This document shows positions 3,115 to 19,571 of a DNA stretch of 64,000 nucleotides, piece after piece. Location of the stretch: assembly GCA_963701035.1 (NCBI GenBank), contig OY969562.1, positions 1,491,459-1,555,458 on the forward strand, read 5' to 3'. A model generated the notes under the pieces. It searched no databases. It was not told where the DNA came from and saw only the letters and a program-made list of their open reading frames with translations. Position numbers and translations under genes: made by a program. The DNA is from an uncultured Solirubrobacterales bacterium (GTDB lineage: Bacteria > Actinomycetota > Thermoleophilia > Solirubrobacterales > Solirubrobacteraceae). Numbering within the stretch: the first letter of the stretch is position 1; each line of letters opens with the position of its first letter.

Positions 3115-3118
3115 GAAG

Positions 3119-3265
3119 GAGCTAAGAACCGTCGGGCCGCTTTACTACAGCTACGCAACTGAGCTGGGTGATAACCAACACGTGCTTGCTTGCCGGCCCG
3201 TGCGTGCCTGAATTAGATTGTCGTTATTCCGCGTAAACGCCGCCACCGCTGTTGGCGGTCCCTGG
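3119..3265. repeat. Composite repeat A, copy 1
   Basis: CTTTACTxxAGCTACGCAACTxxGCTGGGTG..GCTTGCTTGCC..TTATTCCGCGTAAACG..GGTCCCTG, shared with six other loci. Confidence 0.9.
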
Positions 3266-3431
3266 ACCTCGTGGCCCGGGCCTTGGTGGCGAGATCGGGG
3301 GCCCTGTCGAGGCGGGCGGTGAGCGTTTTCGCGCCAGGTTTTGCCTTGCATGGCCCGGAACGACGGGGGTTTGGCGGGCGGACGGCATCCCGATCACGGT
3401 TCCCGTCGCAGGTGCGGCTTAGCTTTGTGGG

Positions 3432-3938
3432 ATGGCTGCTTCTAAGAGGGACAAGCGGCGTGCCAGAGCGCGCGGCACCGACGGCGCGGGCGTCTCGCCG
3501 ACCACCGTGAGATGGTCGCTCGCTTTCTACAGGACCGTCAAGGGCCTGGCGCCTGCCCGCAGCTTTCTGCTCGATTGCCCGCAACCGGTGCGGGAGATGC
3601 TCCTGGCGATCGTGGTCGCGGTACGCGACGCGCCTCCACCGAGTTTCCCGCCGAGCAGGATGTGGCATGTCATGCACGGTGAGATGAAGGGGTTCTACGA
3701 GGCACGCGACGAGCACGATGGTCAGCTGTATCGCGTGTTCTGTGTGCTCGACAGCCAAGCACCGGAGCACGGACTGGACGCCAAAGCCCTCACGCTGATC
3801 TGCGGCGGGGTCAAGCCGGTGCGCAGTCCGATGGACACGAGCGTGTACGAACAGGCACTGACCTACCGTCAGGACTATCTGGCGACACGGCGGATCGTGC
3901 TGGGAATGGGCGTTCCGAGAGACCAGCGAAAGTCTTGA
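3432..3938 (+). CDS. Type II toxin, RelE/ParE superfamily (Gp49/HigB-like)
   Basis: FYRT.KG.AP...FL start, FYEAR...LYRVFC; lies upstream of an Xre-HTH gene. Confidence 0.7.
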   Translation: MAASKRDKRRARARGTDGAGVSPTTVRWSLAFYRTVKGLAPARSFLLDCPQPVREMLLAIVVAVRDAPPPSFPPSRMWHVMHGEMKGFYEARDEHDGQLYRVFCVLDSQAPEHGLDAKALTLICGGVKPVRSPMDTSVYEQALTYRQDYLATRRIVLGMGVPRDQRKS

Positions 3939-3940
3939 GC

Positions 3941-3958
3941 AACATGAACTTATATGTT
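3941..3958 (+). promoter_or_regulatory. AT-rich inverted repeat between toxin and antitoxin (candidate antitoxin promoter/operator)
   Basis: AACATgaacttatATGTT; identical copy at 11960-11977. Confidence 0.4.
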
Positions 3959-3969
3959 ATGGTTCTCTG

Positions 3970-4341
3970 ATGATGGCTACGGACACCATGCTCACAGGTC
4001 AGGCATTCGACGAGTTCCTCGAGGGCCAGCTCGCCGACCCCTCGTTCAGAGCTGGATTTGAGAAGAAGCTCGCGAAGGTCAAGAGCATCGCCGAGGTGCT
4101 GCAGGTCATCGAGCTGGCTAGGGAGCGAGAGAACATTCCCAAGGCTGAGCTCGCCCGGCGCATGGAACGCAAGCCCGAGGCGATCTCACGGCTCCTGCGC
4201 GGCGAGGGCGCCAACCCGACGCTCGAGACCCTGATCGACCTGGCCGATGCGATCGGGCTCGAGCTCGACATCCGCATCAAGCGCCAGCCAGCCAAACGCA
4301 ACGGCAAATACTCCCCGCTGAAGGTTCACTCCACCGTCTGA
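3970..4341 (+). CDS. Xre/HTH_3 antitoxin (HigA-like)
   Basis: IPKAELARRMERKPEAISRLLRGEGANPTLETLIDLA HTH. Confidence 0.85.
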   Translation: MMATDTMLTGQAFDEFLEGQLADPSFRAGFEKKLAKVKSIAEVLQVIELARERENIPKAELARRMERKPEAISRLLRGEGANPTLETLIDLADAIGLELDIRIKRQPAKRNGKYSPLKVHSTV

Positions 4342-4391
4342 GCGGCCGCCAAAGCTCGTGGTCGGCCGACCCTGGTCGGAGAACGCGCCCC

Positions 4392-4420
4392 TGACGCGGG
4401 GCAGGACGCCCCGCGCCCAC
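4392..4420. repeat. Hairpin repeat B, copy 1
   Basis: TGAC-GCGGGGC-AGGAC-GCCCCGC-GCCCAC. Confidence 0.9.
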
Positions 4421-4490
4421 GACCTTGGGATACCCAACCACACGCGAGGATGCGGCCCAAGACACATCCCTAAAAAAGACACCCCATAGA

Positions 4491-5084
4491 ATCACCGGTG
4501 GCGAGAAAAACGTTTCTGAAGGCTTCACGGACTCGATCGGCGGCGGCTACGAGAACAAGGCCTCAAAGCTGCAGAGCTCGGTCAGCGGTGGGGCGCACAA
4601 CGTCGCATCGAACAACTCGGCCTCGGTCAGCGGCGGCCTCGAAAACGAAGCCGCCGGTTTTGAATCCTCCGTCAGTGGCGGCTCCAAGAACAAGGCCACG
4701 GGCGCACAGTCCTCGGTCGGTGGGGGTACCGGCAACGAAGCTATCGAACAGCTCTCGTCGATCGTCGGTGGGCTCTTCGACAAAACCGAAGGTGCGTTCT
4801 CCGCGGTCCTCGGCGGCGACGGGGACATCGCCAAAGGCGAAACGGCGGTGCTCGTCGGCGGCTTCGAAAACCGAGCGCCGACTCGGTATGGCGCGGTCGT
4901 GGGTGGCGATTCGAACAAGGCCGGCGGTGAATACAGCTCCGTATTCGGGGGTCTCAGTAATGAAGCCATCGGCGAGTTCTCCTGGGTGGGTGGAGGAGAG
5001 GCCAACAAAGCCAAAGGCAACAGCTCCTCGATCCTCGGCCTAAACACCAAGGAAGCAAGCGGCGGAGGCGAAGTTTTGTACTAG
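4491..5084 (+). pseudogene. Cassette S1: start-less 3' part of a Gly-rich beta-roll repeat surface protein
   Basis: About 12 repeats of 15 aa (SSVSGGxxNxAxxxx); no signal peptide or RBS. Confidence 0.75.
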
Positions 5085-5085
5085 G

Positions 5086-5280
5086 GGGTGGCGGGCTGGG
5101 TGGCTGTTAGCTACCCGGCCCGGTTAGGGATGAGCTAGGAACAGTCGGCGCCGCTTTACTCGAGCTACGCAACTCGGCTGGGTGGTTACCGGAGCGTTCT
5201 TGCTTGCCAGCCCGTGCGTGGTTGAATTGGGTTGTTGTTATTCCGCGTAAACGCTGCGGGCGCTGTTGGTGGTCCCTGGA
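5086..5280. repeat. Composite repeat A, copy 2 (with 5' GTGG hairpin)
   Basis: GTGG-CGGGCTGGGTGGCT-GTT-AGCTACCCGGCCCG hairpin followed by the A core. Confidence 0.9.
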
Positions 5281-5454
5281 CGGGTCGATTCGTCGGGGTT
5301 AGGGCAGACCTGCGAAAACTTGTGGCTCGGTTGCAGGGGTTTTTGCAGCGAGGAGGGCTCGATCTCGTCTGCCGTCCCAGAGCGTGAGTAGCTTGCTCGG
5401 CATGAGATTGACTTGTATTGATGAGCCCCACCCACCCCAGAGCCCCACCCGCCC

Positions 5455-6114
5455 GTGAGCCCGAGCCATGGCGCACCCTTCCGGGGATTCCACGACGACG
5501 AGGAATCCCCCTTCTTCTGCGCGGCCGGACGCACCCCGGAGCAGACCTGGGACATCAGTGTCAACCGGTTTGCGGACATCCTCGAAACGCTCGAGGCCCT
5601 CGCGGCCACCGGGCCGATCGAGATGTCCCCCGGGCTGCTCTGTTCCTGGCACCGCGAGATCTTCGGTGAGCTGTTCCCCGAGAACGCGGGACGGCTGCGC
5701 GGCTTCCGAGACGGTCAAGCCCAACACGTCTACTTCGGCGTGCACAACCGCGGCTACCGCGGAACGACGCCGCGCGAACTTCGCCGGCGGCTGGAGAAGA
5801 TCTGCACCGAGTTCAACACCACCGCCGCCGAGATCCGCGCATCCGAGGCCCCCGAGCGCTACGACGCCGTTTACGCCGCGACGCGGCTGTACGCGAAGGT
5901 CCTGCGCGCCCATCCCTTCGTCGACGGCAATCTCAGAGGCACGACCGTGGCGCTGAACGCCGGCCTGGTCACGCTCGGGCTCGACATAGTCGCCTTCAAG
6001 GACCTCGGCCAGCACGACGAGCTGCTCGGCATCGCGTTCGTCGGCCGCAACGACCCCTACAGCCCGCTCGCCGAACACATCACCGAGCTCTTGGCCGACA
6101 CCCAATCCGCTTGA
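5455..6114 (+). CDS. Fic/Doc family protein
   Basis: HPFVDGNLRG Fic-like motif; WHREIFG...AGRLR. Confidence 0.85.
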   Translation: MSPSHGAPFRGFHDDEESPFFCAAGRTPEQTWDISVNRFADILETLEALAATGPIEMSPGLLCSWHREIFGELFPENAGRLRGFRDGQAQHVYFGVHNRGYRGTTPRELRRRLEKICTEFNTTAAEIRASEAPERYDAVYAATRLYAKVLRAHPFVDGNLRGTTVALNAGLVTLGLDIVAFKDLGQHDELLGIAFVGRNDPYSPLAEHITELLADTQSA

Positions 6115-6135
6115 CCAACGTCCTATCCTTGAACC

Positions 6136-6369
6136 ATGGCCAAAAACACCAACAACGGCGCTCTGAACAACAACGGCGCTCCCAAACGCGTCCACGCCGT
6201 GATCGACGGCAAGCGCGTCCCACTCGACCGCACAGCAGCCCTCTACATCGCCCAACAGACACATCTGCTCGCCCTAGGCGATCCCAAACGGGCGGCAGAG
6301 ATGGTGGCCGAAGCCGAGCGCGCCGGGAACAACGGCACCAACGCCAGCAGCGCCGGCACCGTCGCCTGA
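6136..6369 (+). CDS. Small hypothetical protein, possible Fic partner
   Basis: ATG-started 77-aa ORF 21 nt after the Fic stop, ending just before repeat B2. Confidence 0.5.
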   Translation: MAKNTNNGALNNNGAPKRVHAVIDGKRVPLDRTAALYIAQQTHLLALGDPKRAAEMVAEAERAGNNGTNASSAGTVA

Positions 6370-6390
6370 CCCAGTCAGCACCCCACCCTC

Positions 6391-6419
6391 TGACGCGGGG
6401 CAGGACGCCCCGCGCCCAC
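6391..6419. repeat. Hairpin repeat B, copy 2
   Basis: Identical 29-mer to B1. Confidence 0.9.
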
Positions 6420-6491
6420 CAGCCTTTGGGGTTCGTGGTGAGCTGCGTGGATGCGACCCAAACACGTCCATACAAAAAAACACCACATATA

Positions 6492-7085
6492 ATCACCGGT
6501 GGTGAGAAAAACCTTACCGAAGGTGTCACGGACTCGATCAGCGGCGGCTACGAGAACAAGGCCTCCAAGCTGCAGAGCTCGGTCAGCGGTGGGGCGCACA
6601 ACGTCGCATCGAACAACTCGGCCTCGGTCAGCGGGGGCCTCGAAAACGAAGCCGCGGGGTATGAATCCTCCATCAGTGGGGGCTCCAAGAACAAGGCCAC
6701 GGGCGCACAGTCCTCGGTCGGTGGGGGTACCGGCAACGAAGCTATCGAACAGCTCTCGTCGATCGTCGGTGGGCTCTTCGACAAGACCGAAGGCGCGTTC
6801 TCCGCGGTCCTCGGCGGCGACGGCGACATCGCCAAAGGCGAAACGACGGCGATCGTCGGCGGCTTCGAAAACCGAGCGCCGACTCGGTATGGCGCGGTCG
6901 TTGGTGGCGATTCAAACAAGGCCGGCGGTGAATACAGCTCCGTATTCGGGGGTCTCAGCAACGAAGCCATCGGCGAGTTCTCCTGGGTGGGTGGAGGAGA
7001 GGCCAACAAAGCCAAAGGCAACAGCTCCTCGATCCTCGGCCTAAACACCAAGGAAGCAAGCGGCGGAGGCGAAGTTTTGTACTAG
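6492..7085 (+). pseudogene. Cassette S2 (near-identical to S1)
   Basis: Same length as S1 with a few substitutions (e.g. AAGFE/AAGYE, ETAVLV/ETTAIV). Confidence 0.75.
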
Positions 7086-7086
7086 G

Positions 7087-7167
7087 GGGTGGCGGGCTGG
7101 GTGGCTGTTAGCTACCCGGCCCGGCTAGGGACGAGCTGGGAACAGTCGGCGCCTCTTTACTCAAGCT
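7087..7167. repeat. Composite repeat A, copy 3, left part (split by IS110; resumes 8524-8630)
   Basis: ...TACTCAAGCT|IS|ACGCAACTCGG... reconstructs the intact A core. Confidence 0.9.
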
Positions 7168-7182
7168 GTGTAGTTTTGGGTG

Positions 7183-7432
7183 TGCCTGTCGGGCTCGATG
7201 AGTGTGGTGGGCTCCGGTGTCTTCGTAGCGAGCCCGTAGGGCGAGCGGAGAAGACGCCGGGTGGTGGCGTCCGACGCCCCCGCGAGGGTGCTGGCGGCGG
7301 CGGGATGACTCGTACTCCAGCTGGCCCGTACTGGTGCCTTTGCGTAGATCCGTCTCCCGCCGCCACCGCACCGGATGCCGCCGTGACTTCATAGAAGCCT
7401 GACCTAGCTCGACACAGCTCTGTCCGACGGCC
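7183..7432 (+). ncRNA. Predicted IS110 bridge RNA, copy 1
   Basis: Stem-enclosed loops carry target guides (TACTCCAGCT 7313-22; TTGCGTAG 7340-47) and donor guides (ATAGAAGC 7391-98; ACACAG 7412-17); RNA ends approximate. Confidence 0.75.
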
Positions 7433-7467
7433 TCCACATCACCAACCAGACGATGAGGAGAGACACG

Positions 7468-8478
7468 ATGATCGCAGTTGGAGTGGACACCCACAAGCAC
7501 GAGCACCTCGCCAGAGCGCTCGACCATCTCGGACAGCTGCTGGGCGGGGTGACCGTCGACGCGAGCCTCGCCGGCTACACCCAGTTGATGCAGTGGCTCA
7601 GAACGCTCGAGGGAAATGTTGTGGTCGGGATCGAGGGCGCCGGCAGCTACGGCGCCGGCCTCTGCGAGTACCTCCTCGCCGAAGGAATTACTGTCGTGGA
7701 GGTCGAGCGTCCCCGCCGCCAGGACCGCCGACGAGGAAAGTCCGATGAGATCGACGCGCTCCTGGCCGCGAAGAAGGTTCTCGCCAACGACGGGCTCTCC
7801 ACGCCCCGCGTCGGTGGCACACGCCAAGCCCTGGCGGCGTTGCTGATCGCGCAGCGCACCTGCAAGGGCGAGCGCACAAGGCTGCTCAACCAGATCCAAG
7901 CGATGAACACCACCGCACCCCTCGCGCTGCGCGAGCGAATCGGCGAGGGCAACGGCCGCAACCTCGCCGATCGGCTGGTGAAGATGCGTACTCGCAGCGA
8001 CCGGCCCGCGAGCGAGCAGCTGATTTTCACCGTCATGCGTGACCTCGCTCGACGAGCGCAAGAGCTCGCCGCTCAAGCCAGTGCCTACGAGCACGAGCTC
8101 ACCGTCCTGATCAGTTCCCTCGATGCAACACTCCTGCAGGAGCAGGGCGTCGGCCCGATCTCCGCAGCCAAGCTCTTGGTCTGCGACCCCAAACGGCTGA
8201 AGAGCGAGGCGGCGTTCGCGCGCTGCAACGGCACCGCTCCCAAGCCCGCCAGCTCCGGGCAAACAATCCGCTACCGACTCTCCCGCGGCGGTGACCGACA
8301 AGCCAACAACGCACTCCACACAATCGCCCTGCACCGCGCCCGCCGCGACACCGAAACCCGCGCCTACCTCGACCGCCGCATCAGCGAGGGAAAGACCAAA
8401 CGCGAGGCCATGCGCGCCCTCAAGCGACACCTCTCCCGCCACCTCTACAAACAACTCATCACGATCCCGCTGACCTAA
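7468..8478 (+). CDS. IS110 family recombinase/transposase
   Basis: GVDTHK, GIEGAGSYG, KSDEIDA (DEDD RuvC-like); PASSG..RLSRGGDRQAN (C-terminal transposase domain); AGGAG RBS. Confidence 0.95.
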   Translation: MIAVGVDTHKHEHLARALDHLGQLLGGVTVDASLAGYTQLMQWLRTLEGNVVVGIEGAGSYGAGLCEYLLAEGITVVEVERPRRQDRRRGKSDEIDALLAAKKVLANDGLSTPRVGGTRQALAALLIAQRTCKGERTRLLNQIQAMNTTAPLALRERIGEGNGRNLADRLVKMRTRSDRPASEQLIFTVMRDLARRAQELAAQASAYEHELTVLISSLDATLLQEQGVGPISAAKLLVCDPKRLKSEAAFARCNGTAPKPASSGQTIRYRLSRGGDRQANNALHTIALHRARRDTETRAYLDRRISEGKTKREAMRALKRHLSRHLYKQLITIPLT

Positions 8479-8887
8479 CAAAAAGATCCCCTTAAAGATC
8501 CCCTTGACACAATAGAAGCGTCTACGCAACTCGGCTGGGTGGTTACCGGAGCGTGCTTGCTTGCCAGCCGTTGCGTGCCTGAATTTGGTTGTTGTTATTC
8601 CGCGTAAACGTTTTGACCGCTGTTGGCGCATGATGCGCTCAGGGCTTGCTGGCAAGTAGCGCCTCGACGGAACACTGGCTATCGAGCCAAGTCTCTGCGT
8701 CGGGGTCGATCCATCCAGTAGCGATCGTGTGATCAAGTGCGTCCGGGCGCAGGTGGGCAGATAGCAAGTACCCGACAGCGGTCCCCACCAGTCCGCGGTC
8801 GATCCCGGGTACCTGTGGCACTGCGCAGGGCTCCTTGGTACTGCCGCCGCGCAGCTCGCGGCCGGGGCTGACGGTAGGCTCGATGGT

Positions 8888-10057
8888 GTGGAGGACAAAC
8901 CCAGCGCGAACCTACCCGAGAGGGGAGATGCCGGCTTGCCGGATGCGAGCTATGCCGAGGTGCTCGCGGACATAAAGACGCGGGTTGATGCGGCTCGTGT
9001 GCGGGCGTTGCGCGCGGCTAACGCGGAGTTGATGGGGGTCTACTGGCACATCGGACGGCACATCGCCGAGCAGGAGGATGCCGCGCCGGTCAAACGTGGC
9101 CGTAGCGCTCCGAAGATCATCGCGCGTCTCTCTGCGGACCTCCGCGCCGCGTACCCGGACACCACGGGATTCTCGCCGCGAAACCTCCGCTACATGCGGG
9201 ACCTGTCCCGCGCGTGGACTGAGGAGGAAATGTTGCAACACGGTGTTGCAACATTTCCCTGGGGCCACATCGTTGCTCTGCTGGGCATCCGTGACCCCGG
9301 GATCCGAGCCTGGTACGCCGAGCGCGCCGGCGAATGGACGCGGCCCGTGCTTCAGCACCATATCGCCAACGACCTGCATCTCTCCCAGGGCGCGGCGCCC
9401 AGCAACTTCGAGCGCGCTCTGCCCCCCGGTGACGCCGAAGCCGCGCAGGCACTGACCCGCGATCCGTTGATCGTGGACTTCATCCGGGGCACACCGGGAC
9501 GCGAGCGCGATCTCGAGCTCGCCCTGCTCGCCGACATCGAGCGCTTCATGACCGCACTCGGCAAGGGCTTCTCCTTCTACGGGCGCCAGCTCCCACTCAC
9601 GGTCGGCGACCGCGACTTCGCCACCGACCTGGTCTTCTACCACCACCCCCAGCGTCGGTTCGTGGTGATCGAGCTGAAGATCGGCGAGTTCGACCCCGAG
9701 CACGCCGGCAAGCTCAACTTCTACGTCAATGCCGTCGACGAGCAACTCGCCGCCCCCGAGGACACGCCCACCATCGGGATCCTCCTCTGCGCCACTCGCG
9801 ATGAGGCAGTCACGGAGATGACCCTCCGCGGCATCTCGAGCCCAATCGCCGTTGCACGATGGAAGACAGGCTCGGAGATGACCATCACAGAAGAGCCCAC
9901 CGTCTCACCAGGAATGCAAGCCGAGCTGGCAGAGATGCGCGACGTAGAGGTCGAGCTGACCGCCTTCGCCACCCGTCAGCTGGCCGCGATCGAAGAGACC
10001 ACACCCGACCCCGGCCAAGACATCACCGGCGATCCCGCGGACCCGTCTGGCGCATAG
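8888..10057 (+). CDS. YhcG/DUF1016 family PD-(D/E)XK nuclease, full length
   Basis: N-terminal YWHIG..GFSPRNLRYMR..PWGH; C-terminal DLVFYH..FVVIELKIGEF..GKLNFY..IGILLC. Confidence 0.9.
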   Translation: MEDKPSANLPERGDAGLPDASYAEVLADIKTRVDAARVRALRAANAELMGVYWHIGRHIAEQEDAAPVKRGRSAPKIIARLSADLRAAYPDTTGFSPRNLRYMRDLSRAWTEEEMLQHGVATFPWGHIVALLGIRDPGIRAWYAERAGEWTRPVLQHHIANDLHLSQGAAPSNFERALPPGDAEAAQALTRDPLIVDFIRGTPGRERDLELALLADIERFMTALGKGFSFYGRQLPLTVGDRDFATDLVFYHHPQRRFVVIELKIGEFDPEHAGKLNFYVNAVDEQLAAPEDTPTIGILLCATRDEAVTEMTLRGISSPIAVARWKTGSEMTITEEPTVSPGMQAELAEMRDVEVELTAFATRQLAAIEETTPDPGQDITGDPADPSGA

Positions 10058-10267
10058 CCCGTCCTCGACCGCTCGCACTGACGCTGCGGAAGTCTGAACT
10101 GGGCTACGACGTCGAGAAATCGTTGAACCGTGTTCGAAGCTGCGTGTGCACATAGATCTCGGCGACGCTCGATCGGACACCTTTCAAGTCATCGTCGAAC
10201 GTTTGGGGCGACGGCCTGAGTACAGGTAGGGTCGGGTGAGTCGAAGTCGGGTATCAGCTGTTCGCTT

Positions 10268-10296
10268 TGACGCGGGGCAGGACGCCCCGCGCCCAC
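10268..10296. repeat. Hairpin repeat B, copy 3
   Basis: Identical 29-mer. Confidence 0.9.
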
Positions 10297-10367
10297 CAGC
10301 CTTGGGGGTCCCAGCGAGCTGCGAGGATGCGACCCAAACACATCCATACAAAAAAACACCCCATAGA

Positions 10368-10922
10368 ATCACCGGTGGCGAGAAAAACCTCGCCGAAGGC
10401 GTCACCGACTCGATCGGCGGCGGCTACGAGAACAAGGACTCCAAGCTCCAGAGCTCGGTCAGCGGTGGGGCGCACAACATCGCCTCGAACAACTCGGCCT
10501 CGGTCAGCGGCGGTCTCGAAAACGAAGCTTCAGGGTTTGAATCCTCGGTGAGTGGCGGCAATAAAGGCGAAGCGACTGGGACGTGGGACTCGATCAGCGG
10601 CGGCTTTGAAAACAAAGCCAGCGGGACCGAAGCGGCCAGCGTCAGCGGCGGCCTGCAGAACACCGCCGGCGGCAGCTTTCAGAGCTGGGTCGGTGGGGGC
10701 TACAGAAACGACGCTACGGGCATACAGTCCTCGGTGAGTGGTGGTGACAAAAATGCCGCGAGCAGCCAGTACTCCTCGGTCAGCGGCGGCTCTGAAAACA
10801 GAGCCGAAGGCGAAAGCTCTTCGGTCAGCGGCGGCAAAGAAAACAAGGCCGCGAAGAACTTCTCCGCGATCCTCGGGGGGAAACTCAAGGAAACCACGAC
10901 TGAATTCGAAGCCCTGCTCTAG
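10368..10922 (+). pseudogene. Cassette S3 (5' repeats like S1, different 3' repeats and terminus)
   Basis: ITGGEKN..first 4 repeats shared with S1, then diverges to SAILGGKLKETTTEFEALL. Confidence 0.75.
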
Positions 10923-10944
10923 CCGGTAGTCCACTGAAGCGTCG

Positions 10945-11290
10945 GACGCGGGGCATGGATGCTCCGCGCCCCGTGCTCGCTTAGAGATGAGCTGCGCAAC
11001 TGAGCTGGGTGGTTACCCTCGCGTGCTTGCTTGGGAACGAGCTACGCAACTCGGCTGGGTGATTATTGGCGCGGGGTTGCTTGGGACGAGCTGAGAACAA
11101 TCGGCGTCGCTGAAGGACGAGTTGTGCGACGAGGGCTGGTGGTGAGTTGCCCGGGTTTGGAAAATCCAGCTACGCAACTGGGCTGGGTGGTGATTGGCGC
11201 GTTGTTGCTTGCCGGCGTTTTCGTGGTTTGATTCGCGGTTGTTAATCCGCGTAAACAGTTTGGGCGCTGTTGTGGGTCCCTGGTCCTCTT
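10945..11290. repeat. Composite repeat A, copy 4, with internal tandem sub-repeats and a B-like hairpin (10945-10971)
   Basis: Three GCTxCGCAACTxxGCTGGGTG units (~10990, ~11041, ~11168), then TTAATCCGCGTAAAC..GGTCCCTG. Confidence 0.8.
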
Positions 11291-11450
11291 GGGCCTGGGC
11301 GTTGGTGGCGAGATCGGGGGTTCTGTCGAGGCGGGCGGTGAGCGTTTTCGCGCCAGGTTTTGCCTTGCATGGCCCGGAACGACGGGGGTTTAGGGGGTGG
11401 GCGGCATCCCGATCGCGGTTCCCGTCGTAGGTGCGGCGTAGCTTTGTGGG

Positions 11451-11957
11451 ATGGCTCCTTCTAAGAGGGACAAGCGGCGTGCCAAAGCGCGCGGCACCGA
11501 CGGCGCGGGCGTCTCGCCGACCACCGTGAGATGGTCGCTCGCTTTCTACAGGACCGACAAGGGCCTGGCGCCTGCCCGCAGCTTTCTGCTCGATTGCCCG
11601 CAACCGGTGCGGGAGATGCTCCTGGCGATCGTGGTCGCGGTACGCGACGCGCCTCCACCGAGTTTCCCGCCGAGCAGGATGTGGCATGTCATGCACGGTG
11701 AGATGAAGGGGTTCTACGAGGCACGCGACGAGCACGATGGTCAGCTGTATCGCGTGTTCTGTGTGCTCGACAGCCAAGCACCGGAGCACGGACTGGACGC
11801 CAAAGCCCTCACGCTGATCTGCGGCGGGGTCAAGCCGGTCCGCAAGCCGATGGACAAGAGCGTGTACAACAAAGCGCTGACCTACCGTCAGGACTATCTG
11901 GCGACACGGCGGATCGTGCTGGGAATGGGCGTTCCGAGAGACCAGCGAAAGTCTTGA
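11451..11957 (+). CDS. Type II toxin (Gp49/HigB-like), copy 2
   Basis: Near-identical to 3432-3938. Confidence 0.7.
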   Translation: MAPSKRDKRRAKARGTDGAGVSPTTVRWSLAFYRTDKGLAPARSFLLDCPQPVREMLLAIVVAVRDAPPPSFPPSRMWHVMHGEMKGFYEARDEHDGQLYRVFCVLDSQAPEHGLDAKALTLICGGVKPVRKPMDKSVYNKALTYRQDYLATRRIVLGMGVPRDQRKS

Positions 11958-11988
11958 GCAACATGAACTTATATGTTATGGTTCTCGG

Positions 11989-12360
11989 ATGATGGCTACC
12001 GACACCACGCTCACAGGTCAGGCATTCGACGAGTTCCTCGAGGGCCAGCTCGCCGACCCCTCGTTCAGAGCTGGATTTGAGAAGAAGCTCGCGAAGGTCA
12101 AGAGCATCGCCGAGGTGCTGCAGGTCATCGAGCTGGCTAGGGAGCGAGAGAACATTCCCAAGGCTGAGCTCGCCCGGCGCATGGAACGCAAGCCCGAGGC
12201 GATCTCACGGCTCCTGCGCGGCGAGGGCGCCAACCCGACGCTCGAGACCCTGATCGACCTGGCCGATGCGATCGGGCTCGAGCTCGACATCCGCATCCGC
12301 CGCCAGCCGGCCAAACGCAACGGCAAGTACTCGCCGCTGAAGGTTCACTCCACCGTCTGA
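11989..12360 (+). CDS. Xre-HTH antitoxin, copy 2
   Basis: Near-identical to 3970-4341. Confidence 0.85.
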   Translation: MMATDTTLTGQAFDEFLEGQLADPSFRAGFEKKLAKVKSIAEVLQVIELARERENIPKAELARRMERKPEAISRLLRGEGANPTLETLIDLADAIGLELDIRIRRQPAKRNGKYSPLKVHSTV

Positions 12361-12411
12361 GCGGCCGCCAAAGTTCGTGGTCGGCCGACCCTGGTCGGAG
12401 AACACACCCAT

Positions 12412-12440
12412 TGACGCGGGGCAGGACGCCCCGCGCCCAC
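12412..12440. repeat. Hairpin repeat B, copy 4
   Basis: Identical 29-mer. Confidence 0.9.
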
Positions 12441-12510
12441 GACCTTGGGATACCCAACCACACGCGAGGATGCGGCCCAAGACACATCCCTAAAAAAGAC
12501 ACCCCATAGA

Positions 12511-12580
12511 ATCACCGGTGGCGAGAAAAACGTTGCCGAAGGTGTCACCGGCTCGATCAGTGGCGGTTTTGAAAACAAAG
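12511..12580 (+). pseudogene. Cassette S4, truncated after ~23 codons
   Basis: ITGGEKNVAEGVTGSISGGFENK runs directly into the repeat A hairpin. Confidence 0.7.
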
Positions 12581-12631
12581 GTGGGCCGGGCTGGGTGGCT
12601 GTTAGCTACCCGGCCCGGTTAGGGACGAGCT
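12581..12631. repeat. Composite repeat A, copy 5, left part (split by IS110; resumes 13976-14235 with tandem duplication)
   Basis: ...AGGGACGAGCT|IS|AGGAACAGTCGG... Confidence 0.9.
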
Positions 12632-12646
12632 GTGTAGTTTTGGGTG

Positions 12647-12896
12647 TGCCTGCCGGGCTCGGTGAGTGTGGTGGGTGCCGGTGTCTTCGTAGCGAGCCCG
12701 TAGGGCGAGCGGAGAAGACGCCGGGTGGTGGCGTCCGCCGCCCCCGCGAGGGTGCCGGTGGCGACGGGATGACCCGGGGACGAGTCGGCCCGAGTTGGTG
12801 CCTTTGCGTAGACCTGTCTCCCGCCGCCACCGCACCGGATGCCGCCGTGACTTCATAGAAGCCTGACTTTGCTTGACACAGCTCTGTCCGACGGCC
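12647..12896 (+). ncRNA. Predicted IS110 bridge RNA, copy 2
   Basis: Target guides GGGACGAG 12777-84 and TTGCGTAG 12804-11; donor guides ATAGAAGC 12855-62 and ACACAG 12876-81; ends approximate. Confidence 0.75.
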
Positions 12897-12928
12897 TCCA
12901 CATCACCAACCAGACGATGAGGAGACAA

Positions 12929-13942
12929 ATGATGATCGCAGTTGGAGTGGACACCCACAAGCACGAGCACCTCGCCAGAGCCCTCGACCACCTCGGACAG
13001 GCCCTGGGGGGTCTGACTATCAACGCGAGCCTGGCCGGCTACATGAAGCTCACCCAATGGCTCAGAACGCTCGAGGGAGAAGTTGTCGTTGGGATCGAGG
13101 GCGCCGGCAGCTACGGCGCCGGACTTTGCGAGTTTCTCCTCGCCGAGGGGATCACCGTGGTGGAGGTCGAGCGTCCCCGCCGCCAGGACCGCCGAAGGGG
13201 GAAGTCCGACGAGATCGACGCGTTGATGGCCGCGAAGAAGGTGCTCGCCGACGACGGGCTCTCCACACCCCGAGCCGGCGGCACACGCCAAGCACTCGCA
13301 GCCTTGCTGATCGCGCAGCGCACCTGCAAGGGCGAGCGCACACGGCTCCTCAACCAGATCCAAGCACTGAACACCACCGCACCCCTCGCGCTGCGCGAAA
13401 GGGTCGGCGAGGGCAACGGCCGCGACCTCGCCCAACGACTCATCAAGATGCGCACCCGCAACGACCGGCCCGCAAGCGAGCACCTGATCTTCACCGTTAT
13501 GCGTGACCTCTCCCGCCGAGCGCAAGAGCTCGCCGCCCAAGCCAGGACCTACGAGCACGAGCTCACCATCCTGATCAGCTCCCTGGACCCCACACTCCTG
13601 CAGGAAGACGGAGTCGGCCCGATCTCCGCAGCCAAGCTCCTGGTCTGTGACCCCAAACGCCTCAAGAGCGAGGCAGCGTTCGCGCGCTGCAACGGAACCG
13701 CCCCCAAGCCCGCCAGCAGCGGACAAACAATCCGCTACCGCCTCTCCCGCGGCGGCGACCGCCAAGCCAACAACGCGATCCACACCATCGCCCTGCACCG
13801 AGCCCGCCGCGACACCCAAACCCGCGCCTACCTCGACCGACGCACCAGCGAAGGAAAGACCAAACGCGAGGCCATGCGCGCACTCAAGCGACACCTCTCC
13901 CGCCACCTCTACAAACAACTCATCAACATCCCCCTCACCTGA
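12929..13942 (+). CDS. IS110 family recombinase/transposase, copy 2
   Basis: Same motifs as copy 1 with scattered substitutions. Confidence 0.95.
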   Translation: MMIAVGVDTHKHEHLARALDHLGQALGGLTINASLAGYMKLTQWLRTLEGEVVVGIEGAGSYGAGLCEFLLAEGITVVEVERPRRQDRRRGKSDEIDALMAAKKVLADDGLSTPRAGGTRQALAALLIAQRTCKGERTRLLNQIQALNTTAPLALRERVGEGNGRDLAQRLIKMRTRNDRPASEHLIFTVMRDLSRRAQELAAQARTYEHELTILISSLDPTLLQEDGVGPISAAKLLVCDPKRLKSEAAFARCNGTAPKPASSGQTIRYRLSRGGDRQANNAIHTIALHRARRDTQTRAYLDRRTSEGKTKREAMRALKRHLSRHLYKQLINIPLT

Positions 13943-14418
13943 AAAAAAGATGCCCTTGACACAATAGAAGCGTCTAGGAACAGTCGGCGCCGCTTTACTC
14001 GAGCTACGCAACTCGGCTGGGTGGTTACCGGAGCGTGCTTGCTTGGGGATGAGCTAAGACAACCAGCCACTCTTTACTCAAGCTACGCAACTCGGCTGGG
14101 TGGTTACCGGAGCGTGCTTGCTTGCCAGCCGTTGCGTGCCTGAATTTGGTTGTTGTTATTCCGCGTAAACGTTTTGACCGCTGTTGCCGGTCCCTGATGC
14201 GTTTTGATCGCTGCCGGTGGTCCCTGATGGACCAGCGCGCCGGCGCGGCGCGCACGTGATCGATCGCCTCCAACCCACAGCTCGAGGATCGCGCGGCGAT
14301 CGAGGTCTTCCTCGAGGGTTCGTTTGATCAGGTCAGACGCGCTGACGCCGGCGGGTCCGGCGGGCCGCTCCCCTTGCCCACCCCTGATGGCCGGATCCCG
14401 TCCGGAGCCAATGCGAAC

Positions 14419-15255
14419 ATGTGTTCGATGACTGGTCCTCCACCCATACGCCGCAGCGACGCGCTGCCGGCCGACTACCCGCAGTTCCTGGCCGAGATCA
14501 AGGCCCGGATCGCGGGCGCGCGCACCCGTGCAGTACTCGCGGTCAACAGCGAGCTGATCCGGCTCTACTGGGAGATCGGGCACGAGATCCTCGAGCGCGA
14601 GCAGCGCGAGGGATGGGGCGCCAAGGTCATCAACCGCCTAGCGGAGGATCTCCGGCGCGAGTTCCCCGACATGACGGGGCTCTCGCTGCGGAACCTTCGC
14701 TACATGCGAGCGTTTGCCCGAGCGTGGCCCGCCGAGAGCCCGTCCTCAATTGTGCAACAGCCTGTTGCACAATTGCCCTGGGGGCACAACGTCACGCTGC
14801 TCGACAAGCTCGACGACTCCGCAGGACGGCTTTGGTACGCCGGTCAAGCCGTCGAGAACGGGTGGTCTCGCAACGTCCTGCAGGCCCAGATCGCGAGCGA
14901 TCTCCGTGGTCGCCAGGGCAGCGCGCTAACAAGCTTCGACCACGCGCTGCCGGAGCCGGACTCGGAGCTCGTTCGCGACGCGATCAAGGACCCCTACAAC
15001 TTCGAGTTCCTCGGCCTGGCTGGGCGGGCGAAGGAGCGCGACCTCGAGCGGGCCCTGCTTCGAGGCATCGACAGCCCGGTGGCGATTGCGCGCTACACCA
15101 CGAGCGAGGTCACGCTGACGCAGACACCACCGCCGGAGATGCAGCCCGCGCTCCCGGACCTTCCCGCGCTGGCAAGCGAGCTATCCGACATCGTCGAGGC
15201 AGCCAACGCTGCGCACGACGATGGGGCGACGGAGGACGAGACGGGAAACAGTTAG
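14419..15255 (+). CDS. YhcG/DUF1016 protein lacking the nuclease core
   Basis: Intact N-terminal domain; DLERALL is joined directly to RGIDSP. Confidence 0.75.
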   Translation: MCSMTGPPPIRRSDALPADYPQFLAEIKARIAGARTRAVLAVNSELIRLYWEIGHEILEREQREGWGAKVINRLAEDLRREFPDMTGLSLRNLRYMRAFARAWPAESPSSIVQQPVAQLPWGHNVTLLDKLDDSAGRLWYAGQAVENGWSRNVLQAQIASDLRGRQGSALTSFDHALPEPDSELVRDAIKDPYNFEFLGLAGRAKERDLERALLRGIDSPVAIARYTTSEVTLTQTPPPEMQPALPDLPALASELSDIVEAANAAHDDGATEDETGNS

Positions 15256-15268
15256 CACCCCCACCCCC

Positions 15269-15290
15269 TGACGCGGGGCAGGGACGCGCC
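15269..15290. repeat. Hairpin repeat B, partial copy 5
   Basis: TGACGCGGGGCAGG preceded by the AGCACCCCCACCCC leader seen at other B copies. Confidence 0.7.
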
Positions 15291-15342
15291 CTGGTGGTAA
15301 GACAGCGCGCCATTCGAAACGCTCGCGTCTCGTCCGTTGCGA

Positions 15343-16758
15343 TCATGTCGGTGTCTTGGAGCGGGACGCCTCTTCTGTCCGCGAAAGCAAGCGCACGCCA
15401 AGGTCGCCATGTTTCTGGCGTGGAGGGGGTGTGTGGGGTTGGAGTGTGATGCGTCCGCCGCGTGCGGGTACGATGAATACGTTGCGGTGCGCGACTCGCT
15501 CTGCTCGCTGGTGGGAGGGTTCGAGGCGGGCGTGGCGCAGGATTGTCCTGAGCACGATTCGGGCCTCGGAGAGGGAGAACGCGGCGCCGATGCATCGTCT
15601 GGGTCCGCCGCCGAAGGGGATCCAGGTGTAGGTGCCGGCGCGCGTGTCAAGGAAGCGCTCGGGGCGGAAGGCGAGCGGGTCTGGGTAGAGCTCGGGACGG
15701 CGGTGCACGAGCGTTATGTAGGGGACGACCATCGTGCCGCTCGGGATCGTCAGCCCGGGTAGCTCGAACTGCTCGGTGGCGAGTCGTGCGGTGAGCGGGA
15801 AAGCTGGGCGCAATCGCATCGCCTCCTTGATGACCGCGTCGAGGTACTCATCGTCTCCGTCGAGCGCGGCGGCTTGCAGGCGTGTGAGCGCGTCGGGGTA
15901 GCGGCTGACGCGCTCGAATATCCACGTCAGGGTCGAAGCGGTCGTGTCGTGGCCACCGAGCAGCAGGGTGCGCATCGCGTCGCAGATCTCCTCGTCGCTC
16001 ATCAGGCGGTCTTGGCTGTCGGGTGTGCGCAGGAACATTCCGAGCACGTCCTGGCCGTCGAGTTGACCGCTGCTGCGGCGGTGGGCGACCTCTTCCAGCA
16101 CGATCGCGTCGACCGCGTCGATCGCGCGGCGGACTCGTGGGAACGGTCTGTCCCACCCGTTCTGGCGGCTGGTCGCGATTATCGTCTGCAGGAAGAACCG
16201 CCGTGAGTGGCCCTCGGCAAGCAGCGCGAGCGTCGCTGAGCGCAACCGGTTGACGCGCGCGGGGTCGGTGACCCCGAACACGGTGGCCATGATCACCTCG
16301 AGGCTGATCGCTTCCATGTGCGGCTGGGAGGGAGTGGGGTGCCCGTAGGGCCAGCGTGCGAGAACCTCTTCGGTCTTGCGCTGCATCGTCTCGTGGTAGC
16401 CGGCAAGCGCGTCGCCGTGGAACGGGGGCAGCTGCGTGCGCCGCCTGCGCATGTGCTCGGCGCCGTCGATGTTCGTGAGTCCCGTCGGGCCGAGGAAGAG
16501 ATGGTGCGCGGACGCCTTCGCCAGCGCCGCTCCAAGTGCAAGCACGCCGGTGTCGGCTGTGAAGATGCGCTTGATGTCCTCGGGATCGGTCAGGCACAGC
16601 CACGGCCCCGTCGCCGGCATCGGCACGAGGAAACGGTCGCCGAGGCGCTGGCAGTGGCGCGCGAACTGCTCCGGGGCCAGCCAGTACTGGGCGGCATTGA
16701 CAACCGCGGGGCGTCGCAGTCGAGGCAAGTCGGTAAGTGTCTGGTCCATGAGCCACAT
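15343..16758 (-). CDS. Cytochrome P450
   Basis: GGHDTT (I helix), EAMR (ExxR), FGGGPRRCIG heme-thiolate motif. Confidence 0.95.
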   Translation of the reverse strand: MWLMDQTLTDLPRLRRPAVVNAAQYWLAPEQFARHCQRLGDRFLVPMPATGPWLCLTDPEDIKRIFTADTGVLALGAALAKASAHHLFLGPTGLTNIDGAEHMRRRRTQLPPFHGDALAGYHETMQRKTEEVLARWPYGHPTPSQPHMEAISLEVIMATVFGVTDPARVNRLRSATLALLAEGHSRRFFLQTIIATSRQNGWDRPFPRVRRAIDAVDAIVLEEVAHRRSSGQLDGQDVLGMFLRTPDSQDRLMSDEEICDAMRTLLLGGHDTTASTLTWIFERVSRYPDALTRLQAAALDGDDEYLDAVIKEAMRLRPAFPLTARLATEQFELPGLTIPSGTMVVPYITLVHRRPELYPDPLAFRPERFLDTRAGTYTWIPFGGGPRRCIGAAFSLSEARIVLRTILRHARLEPSHQRAERVAHRNVFIVPARGGRITLQPHTPPPRQKHGDLGVRLLSRTEEASRSKTPT

Positions 16759-16766
16759 CCTCTCTA

Positions 16767-16791
16767 GTTACTCTGTACGAAATACAGTAAC
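16767..16791. promoter_or_regulatory. Imperfect palindrome between divergent P450 and TetR (candidate TetR operator)
   Basis: GTTACtcTGTA-cgaaa-TACAGTAAC. Confidence 0.5.
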
Positions 16792-16800
16792 ATAGTACCC

Positions 16801-17424
16801 ATGGTGCCGATAGCCGAACTCCTTGACGTGACTCCTGTCGTGGGCGAGGACGTGCTGTTTGACCGGGTTGCCGCGGCGGCGCTCGAAGAGTTCGCCGAGC
16901 ACGGCATCCGTCGCACCTCGATGGAAGACGTCGCGCGTCGCGCCGGTGTCTCACGAATGACCGTTTTCCGCCGGTTCGCGAGCAAGCAACGCCTCGTCGA
17001 GATCGTCATCGCACGCGAGGTCAATCGCGGAATGCAAGAGCTCGACCTCCTCTGGGAAGGCGCGGAAACACTCGAGGACCGACTCGTCGCAGGGTTCGAG
17101 TTCGCCGGGCGCTACGTCCGCGGGCACCCACTATTCGACCGGCTCCTGCGCAGTGAACCCGAGGTCCTGCTACCGCCGCTCACGCTCGACGGCGGACCCG
17201 TGCTCGAGCTCTACCGATCACTCATCGCACATCGACTCCAGGCCGAAGTCAACGCCGGACGCGCCACGACATCAGACATCGACGGTGTCGCTGAGGTGAT
17301 CGCACGCCTCGCGATCTCACTACTACTCACCCGCGACGGGACCATCACACTCGAGGACCCAAACTCCGTCCGGCGCCTAGTCAACCTCACAGTACTCCCC
17401 ATGCTCCAACCACAACAGGACTAG
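16801..17424 (+). CDS. TetR/AcrR family regulator
   Basis: TSMEDVARRAGVSRMTVFRRFASK HTH. Confidence 0.92.
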   Translation: MVPIAELLDVTPVVGEDVLFDRVAAAALEEFAEHGIRRTSMEDVARRAGVSRMTVFRRFASKQRLVEIVIAREVNRGMQELDLLWEGAETLEDRLVAGFEFAGRYVRGHPLFDRLLRSEPEVLLPPLTLDGGPVLELYRSLIAHRLQAEVNAGRATTSDIDGVAEVIARLAISLLLTRDGTITLEDPNSVRRLVNLTVLPMLQPQQD

Positions 17425-17654
17425 CCGCCGATCCGCCTAACCCACGGCGCGATGCCACTCAGACGAAGCGCACCCTCTCGCTTTGTGTGTGATCCGCGCG
17501 TCTCAAGGGGCACCCAGCTCACTCCTGCTCCGGACGACAAACAAGCGTCTTGGCCACCCGCATGAGCACTGGTCGCAGTGCTGTCCGTGTGAGGGCAGCA
17601 CGCGGCTTGGCGTCACTCTGATATCAGGCCCTTCCCGGTACGCACACCACCCTT

Positions 17655-17684
17655 TGACGCGGGGCATGGAGGCCCCGCGCCCAC
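17655..17684. repeat. Hairpin repeat B, copy 6 (loop variant)
   Basis: TGAC-GCGGGGC-ATGGAG-GCCCCGC-GCCCAC. Confidence 0.85.
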
Positions 17685-17746
17685 TCCCATCGGAAACGCC
17701 AACACCACGCGTGGATGCGCCCCAAAAAGACACCCAATTTCATTCA

Positions 17747-18307: not shown

Positions 18308-18399
18308 TCGATCCGCAGCACCTGACGCGCAATCGCTGAGGCGCAGCACCTGATGCTCGGCACCCCCCGGGGCCTGAAGGCCCCGGGGTGCAGTCAGCG

Positions 18400-19559: not shown

Positions 19560-19571
19560 CACCCCACCCTT

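What the first reader, a model, noticed from the sequence alone, without database searches (positions are those of the whole stretch)
7158..13990. Two IS110 paralogues with naturally reprogrammed bridge-RNA target guides
Seen: the non-coding left ends align closely except for an 8-nt block in identical register: GACTCG-TACTCCAG-CT-GGCCC (7313) versus GACCCG-GGGACGAG-TC-GGCCC (12777). Copy 1 sits at TACTCAAG-CT-ACGCAA (7/8 match); copy 2 sits at GGGACGAG-CT-AGGAAC (8/8 match). The shared TTGCGTAG is the reverse complement of CTACGCAA (8/8 for site 1, 5/8 for site 2). Donor-loop ATAGAAGC and ACACAG match the circle junction ATAGAAGCGT-CT-GTGT. Known: IS110 bridge RNAs use such guides around a CT core. 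Inference: retargeting to a second CT about 30 bp away in the same repeat, and a new pair for genome editing.
Basis: partly seen in the sequence, partly recalled or inferred. Interest (0 to 1): 0.8.

Follow-up and report, generated by a model that had tools for sequence, protein, structure and literature searches.

The report
Two bridge-RNA IS110 elements, different guides
Two related RNA-guided jumping genes (IS110 type) in a soil actinobacterium carry guide RNAs that differ mainly in the short segment that reads the left side of the insertion site, and each sits where its own guide fits; this is a clean natural example of a mechanism published in 2024, not a new one.

Summary
The window holds two intact IS110-group elements: T1 at 7168-8521 and T2 at 12632-13973. 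They are 88% identical, and the genome holds two copies of each. Their 300-nt left ends have the published bridge-RNA layout: a target loop, a donor loop, handshake dinucleotides and a promoter rebuilt across the circle junction.

T1 and T2 share the right-target guide and both donor guides. They differ at 5 of 8 positions of the left-target guide (UACUCCAG versus GGGACGAG). All four copies lie at left flanks that match their own guide (7/8, 7/8, 8/8, 7/8).

Across 24 guide classes and 59 insertions of relatives from Solirubrobacterales genomes, guides track flanks far better than any of 20,000 shuffled pairings did.

- T2's normal target is the short repeat form GGGAYGAG-CT-ACGCAAC. The in-window T2 copy sits at a one-armed match (left 8/8, right 3/6).
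- The two lineages are old (dS 0.37), and the T2 guide occurs in other genomes, so retargeting did not happen in this genome.

The scan has reported equivalent cases on other DNA. Verdict: new members of a known kind, of modest interest.

The parts
7166..7167 (+). Left copy of the CT core at T1. It is preceded by the left target TACTCAAG (7158-7165).
   Evidence: Empty paralogous sites read TACTC(A/G)AG-CT-ACGCAAC.
7168..8521 (+). T1, an IS110-group insertion sequence of 1354 bp. A second, identical copy lies outside the window at genome position 1467682.
7171..7176 (+). TAGTTT, the -10 half of the promoter that forms only across the circle junction.
   Evidence: In the circle, TTGACA (8504-8509) lies 17 nt upstream of TAGTTT. 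TTGAC(A/T)-17/18-TANNNT is kept in 39 of 42 distinct family junctions. No promoter-like site is found in the integrated copy.
7214..7260 (+). 5' stem-loop of the predicted bridge RNA.
   Evidence: It has the same fold in T1 and T2 (-33.9 and -33.0 kcal/mol). In the alignment of 45 relatives' left ends, both arms are seen by eye to change together; this was not counted, and the computed consensus fold recovers the hairpin only in part, with low energy.
7287..7372 (+). Target-binding loop module: basal stem (7287-7309 paired with 7352-7372), internal loop and distal hairpin (7323-7338).
   Evidence: Compensatory pairs occur in the basal stem (columns 41/121 and 43/120 of alignment A2).
7313..7322 (+). 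Left target guide of T1, UACUCCAG, plus CU. It has the same sense as the left flank and so pairs with the bottom strand.
   Evidence: It matches TACTCAAG-CT at 9/10, the best match in the left end; the next best is 6/10. Family register.
7340..7349 (+). Right target guide UUGCGUAG (reverse complement of CT-ACGCAA) plus the handshake dinucleotide AU (7348-7349).
   Evidence: AU faces donor positions GT with one G.U wobble. Handshake role as defined in PMC11208158.
7377..7431 (+). Donor-binding loop module: basal stem 7377-7387 paired with 7422-7431, left donor guide AUAGAAGC (7391-7398), right donor guide ACACAG (7412-7417) and handshake CU (7418-7419).
   Evidence: Matches are 8/8 and 6/6 to the junction ATAGAAGCGT-CT-GTGT. 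In relatives ACAUGG goes with CC-ATGT ends. Stem pair 140/185 is GC in 23 sequences and AU in 12. CU is the complement of AG, target positions 6-7.
7468..8478 (+). T1 recombinase gene (336 aa), with ribosome-binding site GAGGAG at 7455-7460.
   Evidence: Pfam PF01548 + PF02371. NCBIfam NF033542 'IS110 family RNA-guided transposase', 143.2 bits against a cut-off of 140. D7, E56, D93, D96 and S262/263 are present.
8479..8521 (+). Short right end of T1, with the -35 hexamer TTGACA (8504-8509) and the left donor ATAGAAGCGT (8512-8521).
8522..8529 (+). Right copy of the CT core plus the right target ACGCAA. This is the 5' foot of a REP-like palindrome (ACGCAACTCGGCTGG...CCAGCCGTTGCGT).
7128..7137 (+). 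Unoccupied T2-type left half-site GGGACGAG-CT, 30 bp upstream of the CT used by T1.
   Evidence: repeat family D14.
12622..12631 (+). Left target GGGACGAG plus the left CT core at T2.
12632..13973 (+). T2, an IS110-group insertion sequence of 1342 bp. A second copy, 1 nt different, lies at genome position 2982355 on the minus strand.
12777..12786 (+). Left target guide of T2, GGGACGAG, followed by UC where T1 and most relatives have CU.
   Evidence: It matches its own flank 8/8. UC cannot fully pair with the core (one U.G wobble plus one C.A mismatch).
12804..12813 (+). Right target guide UUGCGUAG plus handshake AC, a perfect complement of donor GT.
12855..12883 (+). Donor guides of T2: AUAGAAGC (12855-12862), ACACAG (12876-12881) and handshake CU (12882-12883). 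All are identical to those of T1.
12932..13942 (+). T2 recombinase gene (336 aa, 91% identical to the T1 protein).
   Evidence: dN/dS against T1 is 0.147.
13974..13981 (+). Right CT core plus AGGAAC. The right target matches the guide at only 3 of 6 positions.
13996..14011 (+). Unoccupied T1-type site TACTCGAG-CT-ACGCAA, 30 bp downstream of the CT used by T2.
   Evidence: genome 1505462 = window 14004.

Best explanation
T1 and T2 are two intact, co-resident lineages of one IS110-group element family in a Solirubrobacterales genome.

Inferred by analogy with IS621:
- Each element excises as a circle whose RE-CT-LE junction builds a promoter (TTGACA, 17 nt, TAGTTT).
- That promoter transcribes a bridge RNA of about 270 nt from the left end.
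- In the donor loop, AUAGAAGC and ACACAG hold the circle junction.
- In the target loop, the left guide pairs with the bottom strand left of a CT, and UUGCGUAG pairs with the top strand CT-ACGCAA.
- The dinucleotides after each 3' guide (AU or AC, and CU) pair with the incoming strand after exchange.
- The DEDD/Ser recombinase then swaps strands at the CT.

Shown by sequence:
- Both lineages aim at the 5' foot of the same REP-like palindrome.
- They differ in which variant of its left neighbour they read. T1 reads TTTACTCNAG. T2 reads TTAGGGAYGAG.
- The T2 copy in the window sits at a site that matches only the left guide and the core, so it is a one-armed insertion.

Also inferred: the guide difference arose before these elements came to share this genome.
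For: Protein:
- Pfam DEDD_Tnp_IS110 and Transposase_20.
- NCBIfam NF033542 above its cut-off.
- Match to the IS621 structure 8wt6, with the DEDD and Ser residues aligned.
- dN/dS of 0.147 between T1 and T2.

Anatomy:
- The left end is 300 nt and the right end 43 nt.
- CT lies on both sides of all four copies.

RNA structure:
- The consensus fold of 36 relatives gives two stem-bounded internal loops with compensatory pairs.
- The target-loop fold energy is the same in T1 and T2 (-49.4 and -49.5 kcal/mol).

Guides:
- Each flank's best match in its own left end lies at the guide position.
- All four copies are at cognate left targets.
- Across 24 guide classes and 59 insertions, LT matches are 142/192 against 79 +/- 7 when pairings are shuffled. 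Right-side matches are 192/288 against 133 +/- 7. None of 20,000 shuffles reached either value.
- Seven more copies from metagenomes have the same scaffold, each with its own left guide, five of them matching the flank in register and two only at a 2-nt offset.
- The donor guide covaries with the element's end: ACACAG with CTGTGT, ACAUGG with CCATGT.

Promoter: the junction promoter is kept in 39 of 42 distinct junctions.

Target census: every genomic site within one mismatch of either guide set lies in the REP-like repeat (10 sites for T1, 10 for T2).

Recent activity: the two T1 copies are identical, and the two T2 copies differ by 1 nt.

One-armed insertion has been shown for IS621 (bioRxiv 10.64898/2026.08.31.748434).
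Against: - There is no RNA, circle-junction or activity evidence.
- No Rfam family matches the left ends.
- T2's left guide ends in UC, not CU, so it cannot fully pair with the CT core. IS621 strongly prefers that pairing (PMC11208160).
- T1's guide has no perfect site in the genome, and both T1 insertions carry a mismatch at guide position 6.
- The left donor guide matches ATAGAAGC but not the GT between it and the core, so donor pairing is not contiguous up to the core as it is in IS621.
- Taken alone, T2's octamer match is only modestly unlikely (241 of 20,000 shuffles).
Confidence: 0.9

Rival explanations
1. In-genome retargeting. One element duplicated in this genome, and one copy's guide then mutated so that it now aims at the second CT, 30 bp away in the same repeat.
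For: - Both elements sit in the same composite repeat type with CTs 30 bp apart, in reciprocal occupancy.
- The donor guides and the ends are identical.
- T1's guide was not found outside this genome: no relative among the 80 loci kept from the representative-genome scan carries it, though records of the window's own genome may be left out there, and there were 0 exact metagenome hits.
Against: - dS between the two genes is 0.37 with 115 nucleotide differences, whereas copies within each type differ by 0-1 nt.
- The T2 guide is identical in another species-level genome, at a site orthologous to the second T2 copy (left flank 98.7% identical over 614 bp), and in two metagenome contigs.
- T2's other sites are all GGGAYRAG-CT-ACGCAAC, with both arms matched. 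The first CT of the long repeat form matches only the left arm.
Confidence: 0.08
2. The similarity between the left-end segments and the flanks is chance, or a captured piece of the target repeat, and has no guiding role.
For: - The left ends are G+C-rich, so 8/10 matches are common (1200 of 5000 shuffles for T2's 10-mer).
- T2's target GGGATGAG also resembles the conserved scaffold GGGAUGAC, 11 nt upstream of the guide.
Against: - The matches fall at one fixed register in 24 independent guide classes and beat all 20,000 shuffled pairings.
- The left arm is in sense and the right arm in antisense, separated by a hairpin. A captured target copy would not look like that.
- The differences between T1 and T2 are concentrated in the loop (P = 8.7e-6).
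Confidence: 0.02

Closest known systems
IS621 (E. coli) and the IS110-group bridge-RNA recombinases (Durrant et al. 2024, PMC11208160; Hiraizumi et al. 2024, PMC11208158; PDB 8wt6)
   Same: - DEDD/Ser recombinase.
- Long left end that encodes an RNA with a target loop followed by a donor loop.
[quoted passage not shown]
- CT core.
- Handshake dinucleotides after each 3' guide.
- Sigma-70-like promoter rebuilt across the RE-LE junction.
- REP-type targets.
- Variable target loop and conserved donor loop.
   Different: - Protein similarity to IS621 is very low (E = 1.3e-4).
- The predicted RNA is about 270 nt, against 177 nt for IS621, and has a long conserved 5' hairpin.
- The left donor guide stops 2 nt short of the core.
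- T2's left guide does not match the core.
- Some relatives match their left flank 1-2 nt out of register.
- Nothing here has been tested by experiment.
ISPpu10 and ISPpu9 of Pseudomonas putida (bioRxiv 10.64898/2026.03.19.712850; PMC12288879)
   Same: IS110-family elements that insert next to REP-type hairpins in intergenic DNA. Many near-identical target copies exist in each genome.
   Different: For ISPpu10 the target hairpin was shown to be required ('dual match'). Here the hairpin is only predicted, and its role is unknown. The host phylum and the repeat family are different.
Half-match (one-armed) recombination of IS621 (bioRxiv 10.64898/2026.08.31.748434)
   Same: The in-window T2 copy matches its guide across the left arm and the core but not the right arm (3/6). 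This fits the definition read.
   Different: That study used in vitro assays and re-analysed IS621 data, and could not separate left-only target matches. This is a single natural insertion with no rate information.

Membership tests
IS110 family, IS110 group (bridge-RNA elements) | Recombinase with a DEDD RuvC-like domain plus a Tnp domain carrying the catalytic serine. | tested here: met
   PF01548 and PF02371. NF033542 at 143.2 and 141.4 bits against a cut-off of 140. D7, E56, D93, D96 and S262/263 align to D11, E60, D102, D105 and S241 of IS621.
IS110 family, IS110 group (bridge-RNA elements) | Long non-coding left end and short right end. No long terminal inverted repeats. The same core dinucleotide on both sides. 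| tested here: met
   The left end is 300 nt and the right end 43 nt. CT flanks all four copies. The ends GTGTAG... and ...GAAGCGT are not inverted repeats (read from the sequence).
IS110 family, IS110 group (bridge-RNA elements) | The left-end RNA folds into two stem-bounded internal loops, and the structure is conserved. | tested here: met
   Consensus fold of 36 sequences. Both basal stems carry compensatory changes, and the distal hairpin is invariant.
IS110 family, IS110 group (bridge-RNA elements) | The target-loop guides covary with the left flank (sense) and the right flank (antisense). | tested here: met
   142/192 and 192/288 matches against 79 and 133 in shuffled pairings; none of 20,000 shuffles reached these values. 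All four copies in this genome are cognate.
IS110 family, IS110 group (bridge-RNA elements) | The donor-loop guides match the RE-core-LE circle junction. | tested here: met
   ATAGAAGC matches 8/8 and ACACAG 6/6. In relatives ACAUGG goes with CC-ATGT. The 2 nt next to the core are not matched by the left donor guide.
IS110 family, IS110 group (bridge-RNA elements) | Handshake guides complementary to positions 6-7 of the other DNA partner. | tested here: met
   AC (T2) and AU (T1) face donor GT, and CU faces target AG. In relatives GAU goes with ATC. The first three positions on the right side match at 0.92-1.0.
IS110 family, IS110 group (bridge-RNA elements) | A promoter is reconstituted across the circle junction. 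| tested here: met
   TTGACA, 17 nt, TAGTTT. The arrangement is kept in 39 of 42 distinct junctions. This is sequence evidence only.
IS110 family, IS110 group (bridge-RNA elements) | The left guide pairs with both core bases. | tested here: inconclusive
   T1 has CU and meets the feature. T2 has UC (one wobble plus one mismatch) and does not. Even so, T2-type copies occur at five sites.
IS110 family, IS110 group (bridge-RNA elements) | The RNA is expressed, binds the recombinase and is required for recombination. | not testable with these tools
Rfam RNA families | A match to a curated covariance model. | tested here: not met
   There is no relevant hit in 6000-15500 at E <= 1. Whether Rfam 15 holds a bridge-RNA model was not established.

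The most novel reading that the evidence does not exclude
T1 and T2 have identical donor guides and identical ends, so either bridge RNA should be able to carry either element's circle to its own target. Yet each element body is found only at sites that fit its own guide (4 of 4 copies, but only 2 informative jumps). If this holds in larger samples, bridge RNAs in this clade act mainly in cis on the circle that made them. In addition, T2's missing core pairing and the left-flank matches that are 1-2 nt out of register in relatives would mean that the left duplex need not abut the core in this clade.
Probability: 0.2. Interest if true: 0.55.

Novelty: new member of a known kind. Interest (0 to 1): 0.3.

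Why it matters
This adds a well-resolved natural series of bridge RNAs from Solirubrobacterales, an order known here almost only from metagenome-assembled genomes. On one scaffold, with one right guide, at least seven left guides occur. Two of them share a genome and have identical donor modules.

That gives ready-made material for three questions:
- How many guide positions decide target choice?
- Is pairing of the left guide with the core needed?
- Does a bridge RNA serve only the element that encodes it?

It does not change what is known about the mechanism. Its use for genome editing is speculative until activity is shown.

Tried and rejected
- Rfam scan of 6000-15500 at E <= 1 gave only a chance hit to a Yersinia sRNA.
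- An exact metagenome search for T1's guide region gave 0 hits.
I could not look for orthologous empty sites in relatives, and the joined-flank queries built were not used.
- I considered that the distal hairpin loop (GUACU versus GAGUU) changes together with the guide, because each loop repeats part of its own guide. I rejected this: T1's loop is shared with relatives that carry other guides (L006, L010), so it follows lineage.
- I considered that CU after ATAGAAGC pairs with the core while donor GT bulges out. Relatives with GU and a CC core do not fit this.
- The T2 10-mer including the core is not significant on its own. The argument rests on the register and on the family data.
- The consensus fold of the donor loop pairs AGAAGC with GCUCU. 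I take this as a folding artefact of the free RNA, because these are the guide segments.
Full report
**What is there**

The window holds two elements. T1 is at 7168-8521 (1354 bp) and T2 at 12632-13973 (1342 bp). They are 88% identical over the whole length of the elements (alignment with flanks). The whole genome is 2.998 Mb in one contig. It holds four copies: two identical T1 copies, and two T2 copies that differ by 1 nt.

Each element encodes a 336-aa protein.
- Both carry Pfam DEDD_Tnp_IS110 and Transposase_20.
- Both pass the NCBIfam model 'IS110 family RNA-guided transposase' (143.2 and 141.4 bits, cut-off 140).
- Both match the solved IS621 transposase, 8wt6, weakly (E = 1.3e-4). D7, E56, D93, D96 and S262/263 stand at the catalytic positions.

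The two proteins are 91% identical. dN/dS is 0.147 and dS is 0.37, so both genes are under purifying selection and the split is old. The relatives fetched are all from metagenome-assembled genomes of Solirubrobacterales or Solirubrobacteraceae, with a few labelled Thermoleophilaceae and one labelled Myxococcales.

**Check of the observation**

The flanks of the four copies are:

| Copy | Left flank and core | Right flank |
|---|---|---|
| T1a (window) | TACTCAAG-CT | ACGCAA |
| T1b | TACTCGAG-CT | ACGCAA |
| T2a (window) | GGGACGAG-CT | AGGAAC |
| T2b | GGGATGAG-CT | ACGCAA |

Scanning each flank along the left ends puts the best match at the proposed guide. T1 scores 9/10 at 7313, with the next best at 6/10. 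The reverse complement of CT-ACGCAA scores 8/8 at 7340 and at 12804.

At the fixed register the chance of the T1 match is 1.4e-4 and of the T2 match 4.4e-5. T2's octamer alone occurs somewhere in 241 of 20,000 shuffled left ends, so the case rests on the register and not on that match alone.

Of the 27 differences in the 300-nt left ends, 13 lie in the 43-nt target loop (P = 8.7e-6). Outside the loop the left ends are 94.6% identical, which is more conserved than synonymous sites in the gene.

**Anatomy, mapped on the IS621 scheme**

The scheme is taken from PMC11208158.
- The target loop has a basal stem (7287-7309 paired with 7352-7372).
- Its 5' strand carries the left guide, UACUCCAG-CU in T1 and GGGACGAG-UC in T2.
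- A short distal hairpin follows (7323-7338).
- Its 3' strand carries UUGCGUAG, followed by AU (T1) or AC (T2).
- AC is the exact complement of donor positions 6-7 (GT), which is the handshake position.
- The donor loop (7377-7431) carries AUAGAAGC and ACACAG, followed by CU. CU is the complement of target positions 6-7 (AG).

The right end holds TTGACA. In the circle it lies 17 nt upstream of TAGTTT in the left end. No promoter-like site is found in the integrated copy.

A strong 5' hairpin (7214-7260) precedes the loops. In the alignment of relatives its arms look to change together, although the computed consensus fold recovers it only in part.

**Evidence from relatives**

The search returned 80 related loci (60-94% protein identity). 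A consensus fold of 36 non-redundant left ends gives the two stem-bounded loops. Compensatory changes occur in both basal stems.

I extracted guides and flanks for 59 distinct insertions in 24 guide classes.
- The left octamer matches its own flank at 142 of 192 positions. Shuffled pairings give 79 +/- 7.
- The right 12 positions match at 192 of 288. Shuffled pairings give 133 +/- 7.
- None of 20,000 shuffles reached either value.
- The right-arm signal covers the core plus about four bases.
- The donor guide follows the element's end: ACACAG with CT-GTGT, and ACAUGG with CC-ATGT.
- The junction promoter is kept in 39 of 42 distinct junctions.

A metagenome scan for the same scaffold with any left guide found seven more copies. 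Their guides are CAAUCCAG, GAAUCAAG (10/10 to its flank) and GAGUCAAG, plus two T2-type copies at GGGATGAG-CT and GGGACAAG-CT.

**The target**

The right target is the 5' foot of a REP-like palindrome, ACGCAACTCGGCTGG...CCAGCCGTTGCGT. About 45 copies of its conserved core GGCTGGGTGG occur in the genome, and ten copies of the repeat lie in window 3000-20500.

The left neighbour of the palindrome varies.
- A short form reads TTAGGGAYGAG-CT-ACGCAAC.
- A long form reads TTAGGGAYGAG-CT-RGGAACAGTCGGCGCCNCTTTACTCRAG-CT-ACGCAAC, with two CTs 30 bp apart.
- Near T1 the first CT (7136-37) is empty and the second holds T1.
- Near T2 the first CT holds T2 and the second (14004-05) is empty.

All sites within one mismatch of either guide set lie in this repeat.
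- T1 has ten empty sites, none of them perfect.
- T2 has one perfect empty site and nine with one mismatch.

T2's fully matched target is the short form. T2b, the copy in another genome (L005) and both metagenome copies sit at sites of that kind. The left flank of L005 is 98.7% identical over 614 bp to the left flank of T2b.

The in-window T2 site matches only the left arm and the core; its right arm scores 3/6. This fits the one-armed 'half-match' insertions described for IS621.

The guide difference is older than the co-residence of the two elements. dS is 0.37, and the T2 guide is unchanged in other genomes. T1's guide was not found elsewhere. It is closest to the CAGUCCAG guide of relatives that are 89% identical in protein.

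**Open points**

- T2's left guide ends in UC, so it cannot fully pair with the core.
- T1's guide is one mismatch from every member of its target set. It is at distance 1 from all four variants: CAAG, CGAG, ACAG and TCAG.
- The left donor guide does not cover the 2 nt next to the core.
- In L007, and in L089 and L091, the left-flank match is offset from the core by 1 and 2 nt.

**Comparison and verdict**

All sequence-level defining features of IS110-group bridge-RNA elements are met. Natural covariation of target loops with flanks is the published basis of the discovery (PMC11208160). This scan has already reported equivalent pairs on other DNA. These are new members of a known kind: a good teaching example and possible assay material, not a new principle.

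Noticed in passing
window 3000-20500; genome-wide clusters near 1.34, 1.41-1.42, 1.47-1.51 and 2.06-2.09 Mb: A REP-like palindromic repeat, ACGCAACTCGGCTGGGTGGTTACC...GCTTGCTTGCCAGCCGTTGCGT. About 45 genome copies of its core GGCTGGGTGG and ten copies of the repeat in this stretch. It often follows a second hairpin (GGGCTGGGTGGCTGTTAGCTACCCGGCCC) and separates short gene modules. Both IS types insert at its 5' foot.
   Followed up: partly
window 12785-12786; also L005, L088 and L090: T2-type bridge RNAs have UC where the family has CU opposite the CT core. Copies with this guide nevertheless occur at five different sites.
   Followed up: partly
L007-L009 and L012; L089 and L091: In these relatives the left guide matches the flank 8/8 or 6/8, but shifted 1 or 2 nt away from the core (AAGCGGAG-G-CT; GTCTCAAG-GG-CT). 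This suggests that the right arm plus the core set the crossover point and that the left duplex tolerates a DNA bulge.
   Followed up: no
L005 versus genome C1:2982355-2984310: The left flank of the orthologous T2-type copy is 98.7% identical over 614 bp, but the element itself is only 94% identical. Its protein is equally distant (94%) from T1 and T2. The right flanks are unrelated. This points to gene conversion between element lineages, or to a rearrangement at the element.
   Followed up: partly
window 7313-7320 versus genome sites listed: T1's guide TACTCCAG has no perfect genomic site. It is exactly one mismatch from all four variants of its target (TACTCAAG, TACTCGAG, TACTACAG, TACTTCAG), as if it sat between them.
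   Followed up: partly
L018-L021 (one genome, OY970282.1): Four copies of a relative share identical flanks on both sides for tens of bases. The element therefore lies inside a larger repeated unit.
   Followed up: no
window 6111-7085 and 10236-10922: Open frames made of 45-nt Gly-rich repeats. One hits Pfam UspA1_rep. They end just before the target repeats. Several partial copies share a conserved upstream hairpin, TGACGCGGGGCAGGACGCCCCGCGCCC.
   Followed up: no
window 8888-10057; 11451-12360: A full-length YhcG/DUF1016 PDDEXK nuclease gene lies between the two elements. There is also a two-gene pair: a 168-aa protein without a Pfam match, followed by a 123-aa HTH_3 protein. The pair looks like a toxin-antitoxin module.
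   Followed up: no
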